A DNA stretch of 64,000 bases from Nitrosarchaeum sp. (GCA_046712755.1 JBKKCM010000059.1:9107-73106), one strand, 5' to 3'; numbered from the stretch's first letter, positions 7,293 through 47,198 are shown. Notes: generated by a model not told the origin, from the letters alone. Made by a program: numbers and translations.

Positions 7293-7829
7293 ATGAGAAC
7301 AGAACTAGTAGAAAATAGAATCATAGTATGGGATATTGAAGATTCACGCAAATTATTTAGTCATGGTTATTACGGCAAACCAATTGGGATTTCAAAACCA
7401 AAGCCTGAAGAAATCAATGTCCCATTAATTTTAGATCTGATAGAAGGACTATATTTGCTTGAAAATAAAAAAATCTCCATTTACAAATCAAATCAAAAGA
7501 TCGCAGTTGAAGAGATGATAGAAAAGTGTAAAAAAGAATATCATGATTTTGATAAAAAATATCGAGTATACAAAAACTTTCGAGACAAAGGATATGTGAT
7601 TAATCCTGGGATAAAATTTGGATGTGATTTTGCAGTGTACGAAAAAGGACCTGGCATTGATCATGCGCCATTTTTGATTCAGGTGTATAACAGAAACGAC
7701 CCAATCACATCAACAGGAATTGTTTTGGCAGGAAGACTTGCAACTACAGTAAGAAAGCAATTCATCTTGGCAATACCAAGAGGAAAAGATAAAGTTGATT
7801 TTCTTGCACTGGATTGGTGGAAAGCCTAA
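7293..7829 (+). CDS. endA: tRNA-intron (BHB) splicing endonuclease, catalytic subunit
   Basis: GIKFGCDFAVY, GIDHAP and VRKQ carry the Tyr/His/Lys triad. Confidence 0.92.
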   Translation: MRTELVENRIIVWDIEDSRKLFSHGYYGKPIGISKPKPEEINVPLILDLIEGLYLLENKKISIYKSNQKIAVEEMIEKCKKEYHDFDKKYRVYKNFRDKGYVINPGIKFGCDFAVYEKGPGIDHAPFLIQVYNRNDPITSTGIVLAGRLATTVRKQFILAIPRGKDKVDFLALDWWKA

Positions 7830-19147: not shown

Positions 19148-19445
19148 CTAGAATCAAAATCCGATCATCTTAAAACGATATAATTACACACTATATCTTG
19201 AGATTCTACAAATTGTATGTTTGTCATCCTAGCAAAAACTAGAATCTTCAAAATAATCAAAATATTTTCTTATAGACAATAGTATGGATCTGCTTTTATT
19301 CTAGAAACGCGTAGTAATGGTTGGAAAGCTGACACAATATCCTTTGTCAAATGCTGGCATCAGTTTGCTGGTCTTTGCTTACTTGCAGGGCTATGCAAAG
19401 GTTGATCCGCAAAAGTCAGCTTCCAAATTTTACTAGATCAATAAA

Positions 19446-42865: not shown

Positions 42866-45800
42866 TTATTCTATTTTATCATAGGGGTCAATAGGGTCTT
42901 TTGTTGTTTTATTGTCTTTGAGCCATTCCAGAGTCTTTACAAAAGAATCGGCTAGTTCAATAGTTGTAAGAACAGGAATTCCCAATTCAATGGATTTTCT
43001 TCTAATTTGATATTCATCATCAAGCATTCCAACATATTTTTCAAGTGTTGATGTGCTGGGAATATTTATGATAAAGTCTATCTTTCGTTCATAGAGTAAA
43101 TCTGCAATGTTAGGTTTTCGTGTAGGTTCCGAAATTTTGTGAACTACTTCAATATCACCAATCTTTTCTTCAAAAAATTCTGCAGTATGCTCAGTCGCAA
43201 GTATTTTAAATCCAAGACTTTTCAATCGTGCGATTGGTTGCAATAACTTTTCTTTATTTTGAGATCCACCTACGGTAACAAGTGCTGTACCTGTACTTGG
43301 GAGAGTGTATCCTGCAGAAGTAAGCCCTTTAGCTAACGCATCGTAAAAGCTTGTGCCAAAGCATGCAACTTCGCCAGTAGATTGCATTTCCACTCCTAGC
43401 CTAATATCTGCCCCCTCTAGTTGCATAAATGAGAATTGGGGTACCTTGATTCCAAAATTGTGAATTTTTTGCCATTTGTTTTCAGGTAATTTAGGTAGAG
43501 GTTTACCCAAGATTGCCTTTGCTGCTAGGGAGATAAGATTTGTCTTAACAAGTTTTGATACAAAAGGCATGGAACGAGATGCCCTAATATTTAATTCAAT
43601 TACATAGACATGATCATCATGGATCAAAAATTGAAGATTAAAGGGTCCTTTAACATTAAACGTTTTTGCAATCTTTGTAGAGTATTCAGTTATAGTTTCA
43701 ATAGTTTTGTTGTTGAGTCGCCATGGTGGAATACACATCATAGCGTCACCAGAGTGAACACCTGCACTTTCAATGTGTTCAACTATGGCTCCAATTATAA
43801 CATCAGTTCCATTACTAACACCATCAACATCAACTTCTAGTGAATTTAGCATGAATTTTGAGATAACAACAGGGTGATCAGGAGATACGTCTGTTGCTTC
43901 TTTAACATATTTTTTTAATTCATCTTGAGACCATACAACTTTCATTGCAGCACCAGATAACACATATGAGGGCCTAACAATTACTGGGAACCCCACATCT
44001 TGTGCAAAACTTTTTGCCTCAGTAATATTTGAAAATGCTTGCCATCGAGGCTGTTGAATATGCAATTTATCTAATTCAGCACTGAATTTGGAACGGTCTT
44101 CTGCTCTATCAACATCATCTGCCGCAGTACCCATTATGTTAATACCATTTTTTGCAAGACTTAATGTCAAATTATTTGCGGTTTGACCTCCAACACAAGT
44201 AACTATGCCTTTTGGATTTTCAAATTCTGCAATATCTAAAATCCTTTCCAAAGTTAATTCTTCAAAGTATAGTCTGCTACAAATATCATAATCAGTAGAA
44301 ACAGTTTCAGGATTACAGTTTACAACTGAAACATTTTTTTCGCCATTTTCTTGCAAACCCCAAACCATGTTTACAGTACCCCAATCAAATTCCACGCTAC
44401 TGCCAATACGATAAGGACCTGCACCAAGTACAATGATCCCTTTTTCATCAGATGTAATTTCAATATCATTTTGATTACCACCATATGTTAGATAGAGATA
44501 ATTGGTAACTGCAGGCCATTCAGCTGCCAAAGTATCAATTTGCTTTACAGAAGGCAAAACACCTGCTTTTTTACGTATTTCACGTATTTCTTCAGCAGAT
44601 TTATCTTTTGCACGAGCGATTTGCTTATCAGAAAATCCCATCTTTTTTGACTCCCAAAGTAAAGAAGTGGTAAGTTGTTCTTGTTTTAATTTGGATTCAA
44701 CATCAACAATATTTTTGATCTTTTCAATAAACCAAGGATCAATTGCAGAAAGTTTATAGATTTTCTCAACTGAGATTCCCATCTTAAGAGCAGCAGCCAC
44801 AAAATATAAAATCAAATCATCAGGGTGAGAAAGGTGGTCTTCTATTTGCTCTTCGTTATATGATTCCATATTTGCTCGATTTAGAACAAGACCGTCATTT
44901 CCAATATCAAGCATACGTATTGATTTTTGTAATGATTCCTCAAAACTTCTTCCAATTGCCATAACTTCACCAACTGATTTCATTGTAGGACCAAGTTTTC
45001 GCTTTACAAGATCAAATTTTGCAAAATCCCATCTAGGATGCTTACATACAATATAATCCAAAGAAGGCTCAAAACAAGCAGTGGTAGTTTTTGTAATTCT
45101 GTTTTCTAATTCCGGTAAGGTATATCCCAATCCAATTTTTGCAGACATGTATGCAAGTGGATAACCAGTTGCTTTGCTTGCAAGTGCAGAAGAACGTGAT
45201 AGTCTAGGATTGATTTCGATTGCAACGTATCTATCAGAATCAGGATCTAATCCATATTGTATATTACATTCGCCTACAATTCCAACATGTTTTGTTGCAC
45301 GTAAAGCTGCAGAGCGAAGCATGTGATATTCATGATTATCAATTGTTTGAGAAGGGGCAACAACAATATTATCACCAGTATGAACTTTCATTGAAAGAAC
45401 ATTTTCCATATTACAAACAATCACATTGTTTCCATCATAATCTTGCATTACTTCATATTCTATTTGCTTCCAATGTCCAATGTATTCCTCAATTAAGACT
45501 TGCCCTACAAGACTTGCCCTTAGTCCTCGTTCAACAATTTCATGTAATTCAATTTCATTGTAAGCAACTCCACCACCCTTACCGCCAAGTGTATACGCTA
45601 CTCGAATAATTACAGGATATCCTAATTCTTGAGCAATTTCTTTTGCGTCTATAAAATTTGTAACGGTTCTACTTTTTAGAATTGGAACATTACATTGATC
45701 CATAGAATCTTTGAAGAGTTGTCGATCCTCAGTTCTTTGAATTCCAGAAATTTGTGTGCCTAAAACACGTACGCCATACTTTTCAAGTATGCCTGCCTGT

Positions 45801-46129
45801 GCAAGATTAACACCGCAGTTCAAAGCAGTTTGACCTCCATATGCTAGCATTATACCATCAGGTCTCTCCTTTTCGATAATAGATTCTACATACTCTACAT
45901 TCACAGGCAACAAATACACTTTATTTGCAAATCTAGTATCTGTCTGAATTGTTGCAATGTTTGGATTGATTAAGATACTTTTCAGTCCATCTTCGTGTAT
46001 TGCTTTGAGGCATTGGCTTCCGGAGTAGTCAAATTGACGGTCGTTTTAGCGACTTTCGCCGGCTTCTCCGATTTTTATTGCCCCACTACCAAGTACAAGA
46101 ATTTTTTTTATCGACTCATCCTTCGGCAG
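42866..46129 (-). CDS. carB: Carbamoyl-phosphate synthase large subunit; two exons 46129-46055 and 46033-42866, 1080 aa after splicing
   Basis: Exon 1 (CTG start, GGAGG upstream) LPKDESIKKILVLGSGAIKIGEAGE; exon 2 FDYSGSQCLKA...; two ATP-grasp domains and an MGS domain. Confidence 0.93.
46034..46054 (-). other. Putative BHB-type mRNA intron (21 nt) in carB
   Basis: AGUCGCUAAAACGACCGUCAA; in-frame UAA; 4-bp central helix with bulges at both junctions. Confidence 0.85.
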
Positions 46130-47198
46130 ATTTACCTTCCTCCATAAGGTGTTTGAGTTCTTCAAAGACGAATTTACAATCATAAGGTCCTGGTGCAGCT
46201 TCGGGATGAAACTGGACAGCAATACAATTTTGTTTTTTGTGTTTTATTCCTTCGACTGTTTTATCGTCTGCGTTTGTAAACCATAAATTAAATTCAGATG
46301 CATTCAAAGATTCAGGAGTTATTCCATAACCATGATTCTGACTTGTAACATAAACTTGATTATTTTCTAAATTAACACATGGTTTGTTTTGTCCTCTATG
46401 ACCATACTTTAATTTGTAAGTTTGAGTGTTCCCAGCAAGACCAATGATTTGCGCACCTAAACAAATTCCAAGTGTTGGGATATTATTTTTAATTAGTTTT
46501 CGTGCAGTTTCAATAGTATCAGGACATTTTTGAGGATCACCAGGACCATTGCTAATTACAACGCCTTTTGGATGATATGACATAATTTTTTCAAAAGATG
46601 TGTTCCAAGGTAATTTTATTACTTTGTACCCAAGATCACGAATGTTTCTTAGTATTGCATTTTTTGTACCAGTATCAATTACAACAACGGATTTTTCTTC
46701 AGACCCATACATCACTGCTTCTTTGGTAGATACTGTATCCATAAATTGTTCAGAGTTGTAATTAGGAGCAGATGCAAGTTGTTTTTTTATTTCATCTACA
46801 TTAATTTCAGTGTCAGATACTACTAAAGCAGCCATCATCACTCCTCCGGTACGAAGATTTTTTGTTAGTGCTCTTGTATCAATTCCGGAAATTCCAGGGA
46901 TTTTTTCATTATATAACCACTCATCCAGAGTCATAGAGAGATTCCAATGACTGGCAGTTAGAGACAGTTCATGAACAACTAGTCCTCTTAGTTGAATTTT
47001 GTTAGATTCAAAGAACTTTGAGATTCCATCTTGATCTTTAATGGATGGATCCGGCACACCATAGTTTCCTACAAGAGGATAGGTAAGTGTAAGAATTTGT
47101 CCACTATACGATGGATCAGTAAGAGTTTCAGGATAACCCACCATCCCAGTATTAAAAACAAGTTCACCAAAAACGGTTGTAGAATAACCAAATCCCAT
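46116..47198 (-). CDS. carA: Carbamoyl-phosphate synthase small subunit; reading frame continues upstream to 47306 with no ATG/GTG/TTG
   Basis: GELVFNTGMVGY, SNGPGDP, GICLG, QFHPE; upstream in-frame KFGKLILDDGTVLDG. Confidence 0.93.
   Translation of the reverse strand: MGFGYSTTVFGELVFNTGMVGYPETLTDPSYSGQILTLTYPLVGNYGVPDPSIKDQDGISKFFESNKIQLRGLVVHELSLTASHWNLSMTLDEWLYNEKIPGISGIDTRALTKNLRTGGVMMAALVVSDTEINVDEIKKQLASAPNYNSEQFMDTVSTKEAVMYGSEEKSVVVIDTGTKNAILRNIRDLGYKVIKLPWNTSFEKIMSYHPKGVVISNGPGDPQKCPDTIETARKLIKNNIPTLGICLGAQIIGLAGNTQTYKLKYGHRGQNKPCVNLENNQVYVTSQNHGYGITPESLNASEFNLWFTNADDKTVEGIKHKKQNCIAVQFHPEAAPGPYDCKFVFEELKHLMEEGKSAEG

What the first reader, a model, noticed from the sequence alone, without database searches (positions are those of the whole stretch)
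46022..46069. A bulge-helix-bulge-type intron interrupts the carB mRNA and carries an in-frame stop
Seen in the sequence: the carB frame starts at CTG 46129 (GGAGG 9 nt upstream) and reads LPKDESIKKILVLGSGAIKIGEAGE. It then has 21 extra nt (AGUCGCUAAAACGACCGUCAA = S-R-stop-N-D-R-Q) before resuming FDYSGSQCLKA. Removing 46054-46034 gives GEAGE|FDYSG, matching the conserved CarB G(Q/E)AxEFDYSG motif, and a 1080-aa protein. The RNA folds as: inner helix GUCG/CGAC (loop CUAAAA); 3-nt bulge AA^A; 4-bp central helix GGCG/CGUC; bulge AA^UUU; outer helix CGGAGAAGCC/GACUACUCCG (8 pairs, 2 mismatches). Established knowledge: archaeal EndA cuts after the second nucleotide of each bulge. Applied here, that rule gives exactly GAA|intron|UUU, with both cuts on codon boundaries. 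The 3' bulge is relaxed (5 nt). EndA-type introns in archaeal protein genes are best known from crenarchaeal cbf5. Inference: this ammonia oxidiser must splice a core nitrogen-metabolism mRNA with its tRNA-splicing machinery (endA at 7293..7829), so splicing could gate carbamoyl-phosphate synthesis. The ORF track misses exon 1 and starts carB at 45919. I cannot check whether this intron has already been reported.
Basis: partly seen in the sequence, partly recalled or inferred. Interest (0 to 1): 0.95.

Follow-up and report, generated by a model that had tools for sequence, protein, structure and literature searches.

The report
Spliced mini-intron in thaumarchaeal carB
The gene for an essential enzyme (carbamoyl-phosphate synthase) of this ammonia-oxidising archaeon is broken by a 21-base tRNA-type intron. 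The messenger RNA almost certainly has to be cut and rejoined by the tRNA-splicing enzymes, which is very rare for an archaeal protein gene, and I found no published report of it.

Summary
On the minus strand, carB is interrupted between the codons for GEAGE and FDYSG by 21 nt (46054..46034) that hold an in-frame UAA.

- **Not decay or an assembly error.** An insert of 17-30 nt sits at exactly this codon boundary in 231 of 401 sampled Nitrososphaeria genomes (45 of 81 genera).
- **Cannot be read through.** Of 83 distinct versions, 45 have lengths that are not multiples of three. All 38 that are multiples of three carry an in-frame stop.
- **One shared fold.** Every version forms the same bulge-helix-bulge shape: a 4-bp helix, 3-nt bulges and an inner hairpin, with many compensatory changes.
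- **Predicted product.** Cutting after the second nucleotide of each bulge joins GAR|UUY. This gives a 1080-aa CarB, the same length as intron-less homologues, with an unbroken pre-ATP-grasp domain.
- **Exon constraint.** The synonymous exon sites that form the outer helix are fixed only in intron-bearing alleles.
- **Machinery.** The genome encodes a catalytic and a structural EndA subunit and RtcB.
- **History.** Relatives show repeated precise loss. No homing endonuclease lies between carA and carB.

No RNA data could be examined, so splicing itself is inferred. The "gating" idea is untested. The closest known case is the crenarchaeal cbf5 intron.

The parts
46055..46129 (-). carB exon 1 (25 codons, LPKDESIKKILVLGSGAIKIGEAGE). 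The start codon is CTG 46129..46127, which aligns with TTG/ATG starts in other genera.
   Evidence: The amino-acid sequence is conserved in all intron-bearing relatives.
46034..46054 (-). 21-nt bulge-helix-bulge intron AGUCGCUAAAACGACCGUCAA, with an in-frame UAA at 46048..46046
   Evidence: (unique in the genome)
42866..46033 (-). carB exon 2 (FDYSG... to the stop). Joined to exon 1 it gives a 1080-aa CarB.
   Evidence: intron-less homologues are 1080 aa; CPSase_L_D1 positions 2-117 of 118 matched without a break across the junction
46057..46060 (-). Central helix H, 5' strand GGCG (exon 1, Gly codon plus the G of Glu)
   Evidence: pairs 7-40, 8-39, 9-38 and 10-37. CG changes to UA in two lineages, through a synonymous GGC to GGU change.
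46036..46039 (-). Central helix H, 3' strand CGUC (in the intron)
46054..46056 (-). 5' bulge AAA. The predicted cut is between 46055 and 46054.
   Evidence: A[A/G][A/U] in all versions. The cut-after-second-nucleotide rule follows from PMC4090602.
46033..46035 (-). 3' bulge AAU. The predicted cut is between 46034 and 46033. It is followed by unpaired UU(GA), so the bulge is relaxed.
46040..46053 (-). Inner hairpin h': GUCG / loop CUAAAA / CGAC
   Evidence: 20, 12 and 8 compensatory cells at three pairs; all 83 versions have at least 3 bp
46063..46070 (-). Outer helix h, 5' strand CGGAGAAG (exon 1 codons Ile-Gly-Glu-Ala)
   Evidence: Third-position entropy is about 0 only in intron-bearing alleles.
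46021..46028 (-). Outer helix h, 3' strand CUACUCCG (exon 2 codons Asp-Tyr-Ser-Gly)
46116..47198 (-). carA (small subunit). Its stop overlaps the start of carB, so there is no room for another gene between them.
7293..7829 (+). Catalytic (alpha) subunit of the RNA-splicing endonuclease EndA, the presumed enzyme that cuts the intron
   Evidence: A second, His-less paralogue lies on contig C58.

Best explanation
The 21 nt at 46054..46034 are an archaeal bulge-helix-bulge intron inside the carB coding sequence.

**Structure (shown).** In the pre-mRNA the two exon ends pair with each other (outer helix). Exon 1 pairs with the 3' part of the intron (4-bp central helix). The rest of the intron forms a small hairpin. 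This leaves two bulges on opposite strands.

**Mechanism (inferred).** The heteromeric (alpha-beta)2 splicing endonuclease cuts after the second nucleotide of each bulge, that is after A46055 and after A46034. RtcB then joins GAA to UUU. The product is an uninterrupted mRNA for a normal 1080-aa CarB.

**Fate of unspliced RNA (shown from sequence).** It can only give a 27-residue peptide, because of the in-frame UAA. In relatives the block is a frameshift instead.

**History (inferred).** The intron is old, being shared across most families of Nitrososphaerales. It is inherited vertically and has been lost precisely several times.

**Shown versus inferred.** Shown here: the structure, its covariation, its distribution, the restored reading frame and the presence of the enzymes. 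Inferred: the cleavage and ligation themselves.
For: 1. **Same site, many genomes.** An insert of 10-60 nt lies between GAR and TTY in 231 of 401 class genomes and 45 of 81 genera. These include closed chromosomes and named organisms such as Nitrosarchaeum spp., Ca. Nitrosopumilus salarius BD31, Nitrosotenuis and Nitrosomaritimum.
2. **Read-through is impossible.** Of 83 distinct inserts, 45 have a length that is not a multiple of three (17, 20, 22, 23 or 26 nt). All 38 multiples of three have an in-frame stop, against 1 and 10 in the other two frames and a shuffle mean of 10.8 with a maximum of 20.
3. **Covariation.** 93.8% of cells are paired. There are 52 double-change cells against 16.7 in shuffles (0 of 500 reach the observed value). 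Sliding the 3' partners by 1-3 columns in either direction lowers pairing to 23-67%. RNAalifold finds the same helices without being told. In most homologues the minimum-free-energy fold already contains the central helix, bulge and inner helix.
4. **Geometry.** The layout is that of tRNA introns: the bulges lie 3' of each strand of a 4-bp helix (PMC4090602). The standard cut rule lands on codon boundaries.
5. **Product.** The spliced protein is 1080 aa, as in intron-less homologues. Pfam CPSase_L_D1 is matched without a break across the junction, whereas the 1017-aa ORF lacks that domain.
6. **Exon constraint.** All 69 intron-bearing alleles have at least 5 of 6 helix-forming synonymous states. 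All 39 intron-less alleles have 4 or fewer, and 20 of them have none (entropies).
7. **Enzymes.** EndA alpha, a second paralogue without the catalytic His and RtcB are present. [quoted passage not shown]
Against: - No near-identical junction-spanning protein fragment or cDNA-like contig exists in the collections searched.
- **The 3' side is not canonical.** The 3-nt bulge is followed by 2-4 unpaired nucleotides. In 8 of 44 versions the outermost pair of the central helix is G.A. RNAalifold prefers a 3-bp central helix with G pairing to the third base of the Phe codon.
- **Weak single-sequence signal.** This sequence alone does not fold better than shuffles.
- **Non-independent counts.** The covariation counts include related sequences. 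The phylogeny-aware test of exon constraint has only 3 well-supported independent pairs (3 of 3 in the expected direction, p = 0.25).
Confidence: 0.88

Rival explanations
1. carB here is a pseudogene, or the 21 nt are an assembly or sequencing artefact.
For: There is an in-frame stop in an essential gene. Gene callers start the ORF downstream at 45919.
Against: The insert is at the same site in 231 of 401 independently assembled genomes, including complete chromosomes. The exon 1 peptide is perfectly conserved. The insert shows structured covariation. No second full-length carB is present in the genome (one search lists only this locus and its internal duplicate half).
Confidence: 0.02
2. The ribosome skips the insert (programmed translational bypass, as in phage T4 gene 60), or reads through or frameshifts across it. 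No RNA splicing is involved.
For: A hairpin with a nearby stop codon inside a coding gap resembles the gene 60 gap. The insert is short.
Against: The take-off codon is GAR. The last triplet of the gap is CAA, UAA, AAA, CAG, AAG or CAU, never GAR, so there is no matching landing codon. The codon after take-off is AGU/AGC, not a stop. Gap lengths of 17-30 nt in all three phases would need a different event in each lineage. The covarying 4-bp helix with two 3-nt bulges, and the exon-exon outer helix, are what EndA needs, not what a bypassing ribosome needs.
Confidence: 0.03
3. The gene is expressed in two pieces or from the internal GTG at 45919, so exon 1 is not joined to the rest.
For: A 1017-aa ORF exists from 45919.
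Against: That ORF lacks the first pre-ATP-grasp domain (CPSase_L_D1), which the joined sequence restores without a break. Residues 26-63, from FDYSG to the GTG, are as conserved as the rest but would be untranslated. Intron-less relatives encode one continuous 1080-aa chain.
Confidence: 0.03
4. The insert is removed from the RNA, but by something other than EndA and RtcB, such as another nuclease/ligase pair or self-cleavage.
For: The 3' bulge is relaxed, and no cleavage assay exists for a thaumarchaeal EndA on this substrate.
Against: At 17-30 nt the insert is far too small for a ribozyme, and it gives no Rfam hit. The conserved features are exactly the EndA recognition elements. Relaxed motifs are known substrates of (alpha-beta)2 enzymes.
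Confidence: 0.04

Closest known systems
cbf5 (pseudouridine synthase) pre-mRNA intron of Crenarchaeota (Watanabe 2002; Yoshinari 2006; Yokobori 2009, PMC2738675)
   Same: It is a short intron inside an archaeal protein-coding sequence, bounded by a bulge-helix-bulge motif that is often relaxed. The hosts have a hetero-oligomeric splicing endonuclease. Its distribution is patchy and has been read as gain and loss. Gene predictors miss it.
   Different: The gene (carB) and the lineage (Nitrososphaeria) are different. For cbf5, splicing, the protein product and in vitro cleavage were shown experimentally; here nothing has been shown at the RNA level. Here every version whose length is a multiple of three keeps an in-frame stop. 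Yokobori 2009 lists Nitrosopumilus and Cenarchaeum cbf5 as intron-free.
Non-canonical tRNA introns with relaxed motifs (HBh', hBH) in Crenarchaeota and Thaumarchaeota
   Same: The recognition structure and presumably the enzymes are the same. On the 5' side the central helix, 3-nt bulge and inner helix are strict, and the other bulge is loosened.
   Different: The substrate is an mRNA. The exon parts of the helices are built from codons, so the structure is maintained through synonymous sites.
HAC1 / XBP1 unconventional mRNA splicing in eukaryotes (Ire1 plus tRNA ligase or RtcB)
   Same: It works in a similar way. A protein endonuclease cuts an mRNA at two structured sites, a tRNA-type ligase joins the exons, and the full-length protein can only be made from the spliced form.
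   Different: The nuclease is Ire1 and the sites are twin stem-loops, not a bulge-helix-bulge. That event is a regulated stress switch, whereas no regulation is shown here. This is not a family member.
Phage T4 gene 60 translational bypass
   Same: It is a short untranslated gap with a hairpin and a stop inside an essential gene.
   Different: There are no matching take-off and landing codons, and the stop is not adjacent to the take-off codon. The conserved features are those of a splicing substrate.

Membership tests
Archaeal bulge-helix-bulge (EndA/RtcB-spliced) intron | A 4-bp central helix flanked by two 3-nt bulges on opposite strands, each bulge 3' of its helix strand | tested here: met
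   GGCG/CGUC with AAA and AAU. The same layout holds in all 50 distinct versions parsed. The central helix is 95.5% paired. Caveat: the 3' bulge is followed by 2-4 unpaired nucleotides (relaxed), and the outermost pair is G.A in 8 of 44 versions.
Archaeal bulge-helix-bulge (EndA/RtcB-spliced) intron | Flanking helices: outer (exon-exon) and inner (within the intron) | tested here: met
   The inner helix has at least 3 bp in all 83 versions. The outer helix CGGAG.AG/CU.CUCCG is predicted by RNAalifold and kept in 18-20 of 20 sequences at each of those pairs.
Archaeal bulge-helix-bulge (EndA/RtcB-spliced) intron | Structure, rather than sequence, is conserved (compensatory changes) | tested here: met
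   5 pairs show double changes, with 52 such cells against 16.7 in shuffles (0 of 500). There are 12 distinct inner-stem combinations.
Archaeal bulge-helix-bulge (EndA/RtcB-spliced) intron | Cutting after the second nucleotide of each bulge gives a functional product | tested here: met
   The junction is GAA|UUU in phase 0. The protein is 1080 aa, the same as intron-less homologues. The Pfam CPSase_L_D1 match is unbroken.
Archaeal bulge-helix-bulge (EndA/RtcB-spliced) intron | The host encodes a splicing endonuclease of a type that accepts relaxed motifs, and an RtcB ligase | tested here: met
   The alpha subunit is in the window (a Tyr, His and Lys that I read as the catalytic triad are visible in the ORF). 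A second paralogue lacks the His. RtcB is present. Substrate range is taken from the literature, not assayed.
Archaeal bulge-helix-bulge (EndA/RtcB-spliced) intron | Spliced RNA or enzymatic cleavage has been demonstrated | not testable with these tools
No transcript-derived sequence turned up in the collections.
cbf5 pre-mRNA intron family | The intron lies in the cbf5 gene of Desulfurococcales or Sulfolobales | tested here: not met
   The host gene is carB of a Nitrosarchaeum-like genome. This is the same kind of intron, not a member of that family.
Free-standing homing endonuclease plus mini-intron cassette (proposed in earlier notes of this scan for DPANN carB) | A homing-endonuclease gene lies directly beside the interrupted gene | tested here: not met
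   In the window carA overlaps the start of carB, and the downstream neighbour is a metallophosphoesterase. In 9 other intron-bearing lineages the ORF abutting carB upstream has carA-like sequence (read by eye from motifs such as GEVVFNTGMVGY) and no other long ORF lies between them. Only the upstream side was checked outside the window.
Programmed translational bypass (T4 gene 60 type) | Matching take-off and landing codons, with a stop directly after take-off | tested here: not met
   Take-off is GAR. The last gap triplet is CAA, UAA, AAA, CAG, AAG or CAU. The next codon is AGY.
Self-splicing group I / II introns | A catalytic RNA core of hundreds of nucleotides | tested here: not met
   The insert is 17-30 nt and gives no Rfam match at E <= 1.

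The most novel reading that the evidence does not exclude
The intron is kept by selection as a post-transcriptional checkpoint. Only spliced carB mRNA can be translated; every version blocks the unspliced form by a stop or a frameshift. The supply of carbamoyl phosphate for arginine and pyrimidine synthesis would then be tied to the activity of the tRNA-splicing endonuclease/RtcB system, or to conditions that change the fold. This would be an archaeal counterpart of HAC1/XBP1-type regulated mRNA splicing.
Probability: 0.1. Interest if true: 0.85.

Novelty: new member of a known kind. Interest (0 to 1): 0.74.

Why it matters
- **A rare kind of intron.** In the literature I could search, the crenarchaeal cbf5 gene is the only archaeal protein-coding gene with confirmed EndA-type splicing (PMC2738675). 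None of six full-text searches found a carB intron.
- **A large and important host group.** A second case, in a core metabolic gene, is conserved across most ammonia-oxidising archaea. These are among the most abundant microbes in soils and oceans, and some strains are culturable. This gives an accessible system for studying mRNA splicing by the tRNA machinery.
- **Codons under RNA-structure selection.** It shows that codon choice can be shaped by an RNA structure needed for splicing.
- **Annotation.** Gene callers that use conventional start codons would start carB downstream, as the ORF list does here, or could call it broken in intron-bearing genomes. That could wrongly suggest arginine or pyrimidine auxotrophy in metabolic reconstructions.
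- **Intron evolution.** The many precise losses make it a natural series for studying how such introns are lost.

Tried and rejected
2. **Spliced cDNA in JGI metagenome/metatranscriptome contigs.** I searched for the exon-exon junction with intron-type codons. The 10 hits are unrelated organisms (53-62% identity) that happen to share these codons. This is a null result.
3. **Spliced products in the 5.8-billion-protein collection.**
   - With the full-length query, the best hits are ordinary intron-less Nitrosopumilus CarB (91-96% identity).
   - With a 121-aa query for fragments, no hit exceeded 91% identity.
   - Both are null results.
4. **Rfam on 45500..46600.** No match.
5. **The 21-mer elsewhere in the genome.** It is unique, so it is not a repeat or a mobile micro-element.
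6. **Homing-endonuclease neighbour** (a lead from earlier notes). None lies between carA and carB here or in 9 other lineages.
7. **Genome-wide scan for other ORFs interrupted by a bulge-helix-bulge motif** (intron 12-80 nt).
   - It gave 14,659 structural hits, and 236 passed an ORF-fusion filter.
   - Only 3 also had stable helices. carB ranks first; the other two are a false hit inside a normal ORF that I read as hemB-like and a stretch with no long open frame that may be rRNA.
   - carB therefore looks like the only such case in this genome under these limits.
8. **ARAGORN as an internal control for the cut rule.** It found only 23 tRNAs, one with an intron whose boundaries were unclear. 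I dropped this and took the rule from PMC4090602 instead.
9. **Phylum-wide pattern scan.** There are no AGE|FDYSG inserts outside Nitrososphaeria. The few hits are other frames or other genes. The pattern would miss GQAxE-type motifs.

Full report
**Observation.**
- From CTG 46129 the frame gives LPKDESIKKILVLGSGAIKIGEAGE, then SR*NDRQ, then FDYSGSQCLKA.
- The extra 21 nt, AGTCGCTAAAACGACCGTCAA, occupy 46054..46034.
- The longest conventional ORF starts at GTG 45919 (1017 aa).
- Deleting the 21 nt gives a 1080-aa protein.
- carA (46116..47198) overlaps the start of carB. The ORF at 7293..7829 is a tRNA-intron endonuclease.
- Folded alone, the 61-nt region is unremarkable (z = -1.1). The proposed structure is 0.7 kcal/mol above the minimum free energy. 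The single sequence therefore proves little.

**Relatives settle whether it is real.**
- A six-frame search of 60 relatives showed the same interruption in many of them.
- Reading the loci showed three things.
  - About half of the same-genus genomes have 22 nt, with one more A in the loop, which shifts the frame.
  - Other genera and families have 17, 20, 21, 22, 26 or 30 nt at exactly the same GAR|TTY boundary.
  - Some relatives have no insert and read GEAGEFDYSG without a break.
- A pattern scan of 401 genomes of the class found the exon motif in 326. It found an insert of 10-60 nt in 231, covering 45 of 81 genera.
  - Nearly all Nitrososphaeraceae-like genomes (f15) carry it.
  - Most Nitrosopumilaceae genera carry it.
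  - One genome of another order (G106) carries it.
- Named records place the window in Nitrosarchaeum. They show the insert in Ca. Nitrosopumilus salarius BD31, Nitrosopumilus sp. b1, Nitrosotenuis and Nitrosomaritimum.
- Outside the class, 340 Thermoproteota genomes gave no true insert with this motif.

**Structure.**
- I parsed every distinct version as exon 1, bulge, hairpin, helix strand, bulge, exon 2. Each parse gives the same anatomy:
  - central helix GG[C/U]G with C[G/A][C/U]N
  - 5' bulge A[A/G][A/U]
  - an inner stem of 3-6 bp that always begins with G-C
  - a loop of 3-13 nt
  - 3' bulge A[A/G/U]U
- On a 44-sequence alignment, 93.8% of cells are paired. There are 52 double-change cells against 16.7 in shuffles (0 of 500). 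Sliding the 3' partners by 1-3 columns in either direction lowers pairing to 23-67%.
- Three inner pairs switch between U-A/C-G, C-G/U-A and G-C/A-U/U-A with 0, 0 and 1 unpaired cell.
- The central pair C-G becomes U-A in two families, through a synonymous GGC to GGU change in the Gly codon.
- RNAalifold on 20 diverse 110-nt stretches finds the same helices, the exon-exon outer helix and a possible distal helix.
- In most homologues the unconstrained minimum-free-energy fold already contains the central helix, 3-nt bulge and inner helix.
- The layout, with each bulge 3' of its strand of the 4-bp helix, is that of tRNA introns. In those, the first two anticodon bases lie in the central helix and the splice sites lie in the adjacent bulges (PMC4090602).
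- Cutting after the second bulge nucleotide gives GAR|UUY, which falls on codon boundaries.

**It must be removed.**
- Of 83 distinct inserts, 45 have lengths that are not multiples of three.
- All 38 that are multiples of three contain an in-frame stop. The other two frames have 1 and 10, and shuffles have a mean of 10.8 and a maximum of 20.
- Where the usual UAA at the third codon of the insert is missing, a UGA sits at that codon (or at the sixth in the 30-nt version), or the last triplet of the insert is UAA.
- The joined protein has the same length as intron-less homologues (1080 aa).
- It matches Pfam CPSase_L_D1 positions 2-117 of 118 without a break. The 1017-aa ORF lacks that domain at its N-terminus.

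**Exons are shaped by the structure.**
- In intron-bearing alleles, the third codon positions that pair in the outer and central helices are essentially invariant. These are Ile ATC, Gly GGA, Gly GGC, Asp GAC, Tyr TAC and Ser TCC.
- In intron-less alleles the same sites are variable, and most are usually T.
- All 69 intron-bearing rows have at least 5 of 6 pairing states. All 39 intron-less rows have 4 or fewer.
- The phylogeny-aware version of this test is underpowered: 3 of 3 supported pairs go the expected way, p = 0.25.
- Some intron-less alleles close to intron-bearing ones keep 4 of 6 states (L125). This fits recent precise loss followed by drift.

**Machinery.**
- The genome has two endonuclease paralogues.
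  - The one in the window has a Tyr, a His and a Lys that I read as the catalytic triad.
  - The other lacks the His.
- This is what an (alpha-beta)2 enzyme would look like. The literature assigns that type to Thaumarchaeota and says it cuts relaxed motifs.
- RtcB is present.

**History.**
- A carB tree built without the structured region needs at least 8 changes of intron state. Three of them are forced by well-supported branches.
- The site and the sequence family are shared across families, and intron variants follow lineages. I therefore read this as ancient presence with repeated precise loss, mostly within Nitrosopumilus. Lateral replacement of alleles is not excluded.
- Earlier notes of this scan report introns at the same carB site in DPANN archaea, next to LAGLIDADG endonuclease genes. 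I treat those notes as leads, not evidence.
- I tested the neighbourhood here. carA abuts carB in the window. In 9 other intron-bearing lineages the ORF abutting carB upstream has carA-like sequence. No endonuclease gene lies between them.

**Rivals.** I give the four rivals together about 12% probability.
- Pseudogene or artefact is excluded by conservation and covariation.
- Translational bypass lacks matching take-off and landing codons. It would also need a different event for each insert length.
- Expression from the internal GTG would drop a conserved domain.
- A nuclease other than EndA is possible but unmotivated.

**What is missing.**
- No RNA evidence could be obtained.
- Searches for spliced sequences in metagenome contigs and protein collections found only intron-less species or unrelated organisms.
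- The regulatory "gate" idea remains speculation. Repeated loss shows the intron is dispensable.

**Novelty.**
- Six full-text searches found no report of a carB intron.
- Yokobori 2009 states that only cbf5 splicing had been confirmed.
- A restricted genome-wide scan found no other convincing ORF interrupted by a bulge-helix-bulge motif in this genome.
- I class this as a new member of a known kind.

Noticed in passing
window 46127..46129 (minus strand): carB appears to start at CTG, with GGAGG 9 nt upstream. No ATG, GTG or TTG lies in frame before the conserved GSGAIKIG. The CTG is conserved across Nitrosarchaeum and several other intron-bearing genera, and it aligns with TTG or ATG starts elsewhere.
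   Followed up: partly
whole genome G000: ARAGORN finds only 23 tRNA genes, one with an intron, in a genome rated 99.97% complete. Many tRNA genes are probably hidden by non-canonical or multiple introns, as is known for Thaumarchaeota. This implies a heavy load on the same splicing machinery.
   Followed up: no
G000 C24:26776-27747 and C50:5-625: RtcB matches in two pieces at contig ends, with overlapping profile ranges (1-316 and 226-426). This could be a contig break, a duplication or an insertion (for example an intein) in rtcB.
   Followed up: no
window 46079..46084 with 46007..46012 (minus strand): There is a possible distal helix GGGGCA/UGCCUC, 8 nt outside the outer helix on each side. 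RNAalifold keeps 4 of its pairs in 20 of 20 sequences, with G-C to G-U changes only. Synonymous sites there are also unusually invariant in intron-bearing alleles. It could extend the splicing substrate.
   Followed up: partly
all intron versions: Every insert whose length is a multiple of three keeps an in-frame stop (38 of 38). This suggests selection against translating unspliced mRNA into a CarB with an insertion in its glycine-rich loop. Alternatively it may be a by-product of a favoured UAAA loop.
   Followed up: partly
G005 C35:579-624: One same-genus assembly carries a second, more divergent carB (81% identity) with a 20-nt intron on a separate contig. This is probably a second organism binned into the genome.
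   Followed up: no
G000 C21, minus strand, around position 19435 of the reverse complement: A 43-nt motif resembling a bulge-helix-bulge, with G+C-rich helices, lies in a stretch with no long open frame. It may be rRNA, perhaps a processing stem or an rRNA intron.
   Followed up: no
L053 1162..1818 (G000 C58): The second EndA paralogue (about 190-218 aa) has GAKF where the catalytic subunit has DHAPF, so it lacks the catalytic histidine. It is presumably the structural beta subunit.
   Followed up: partly
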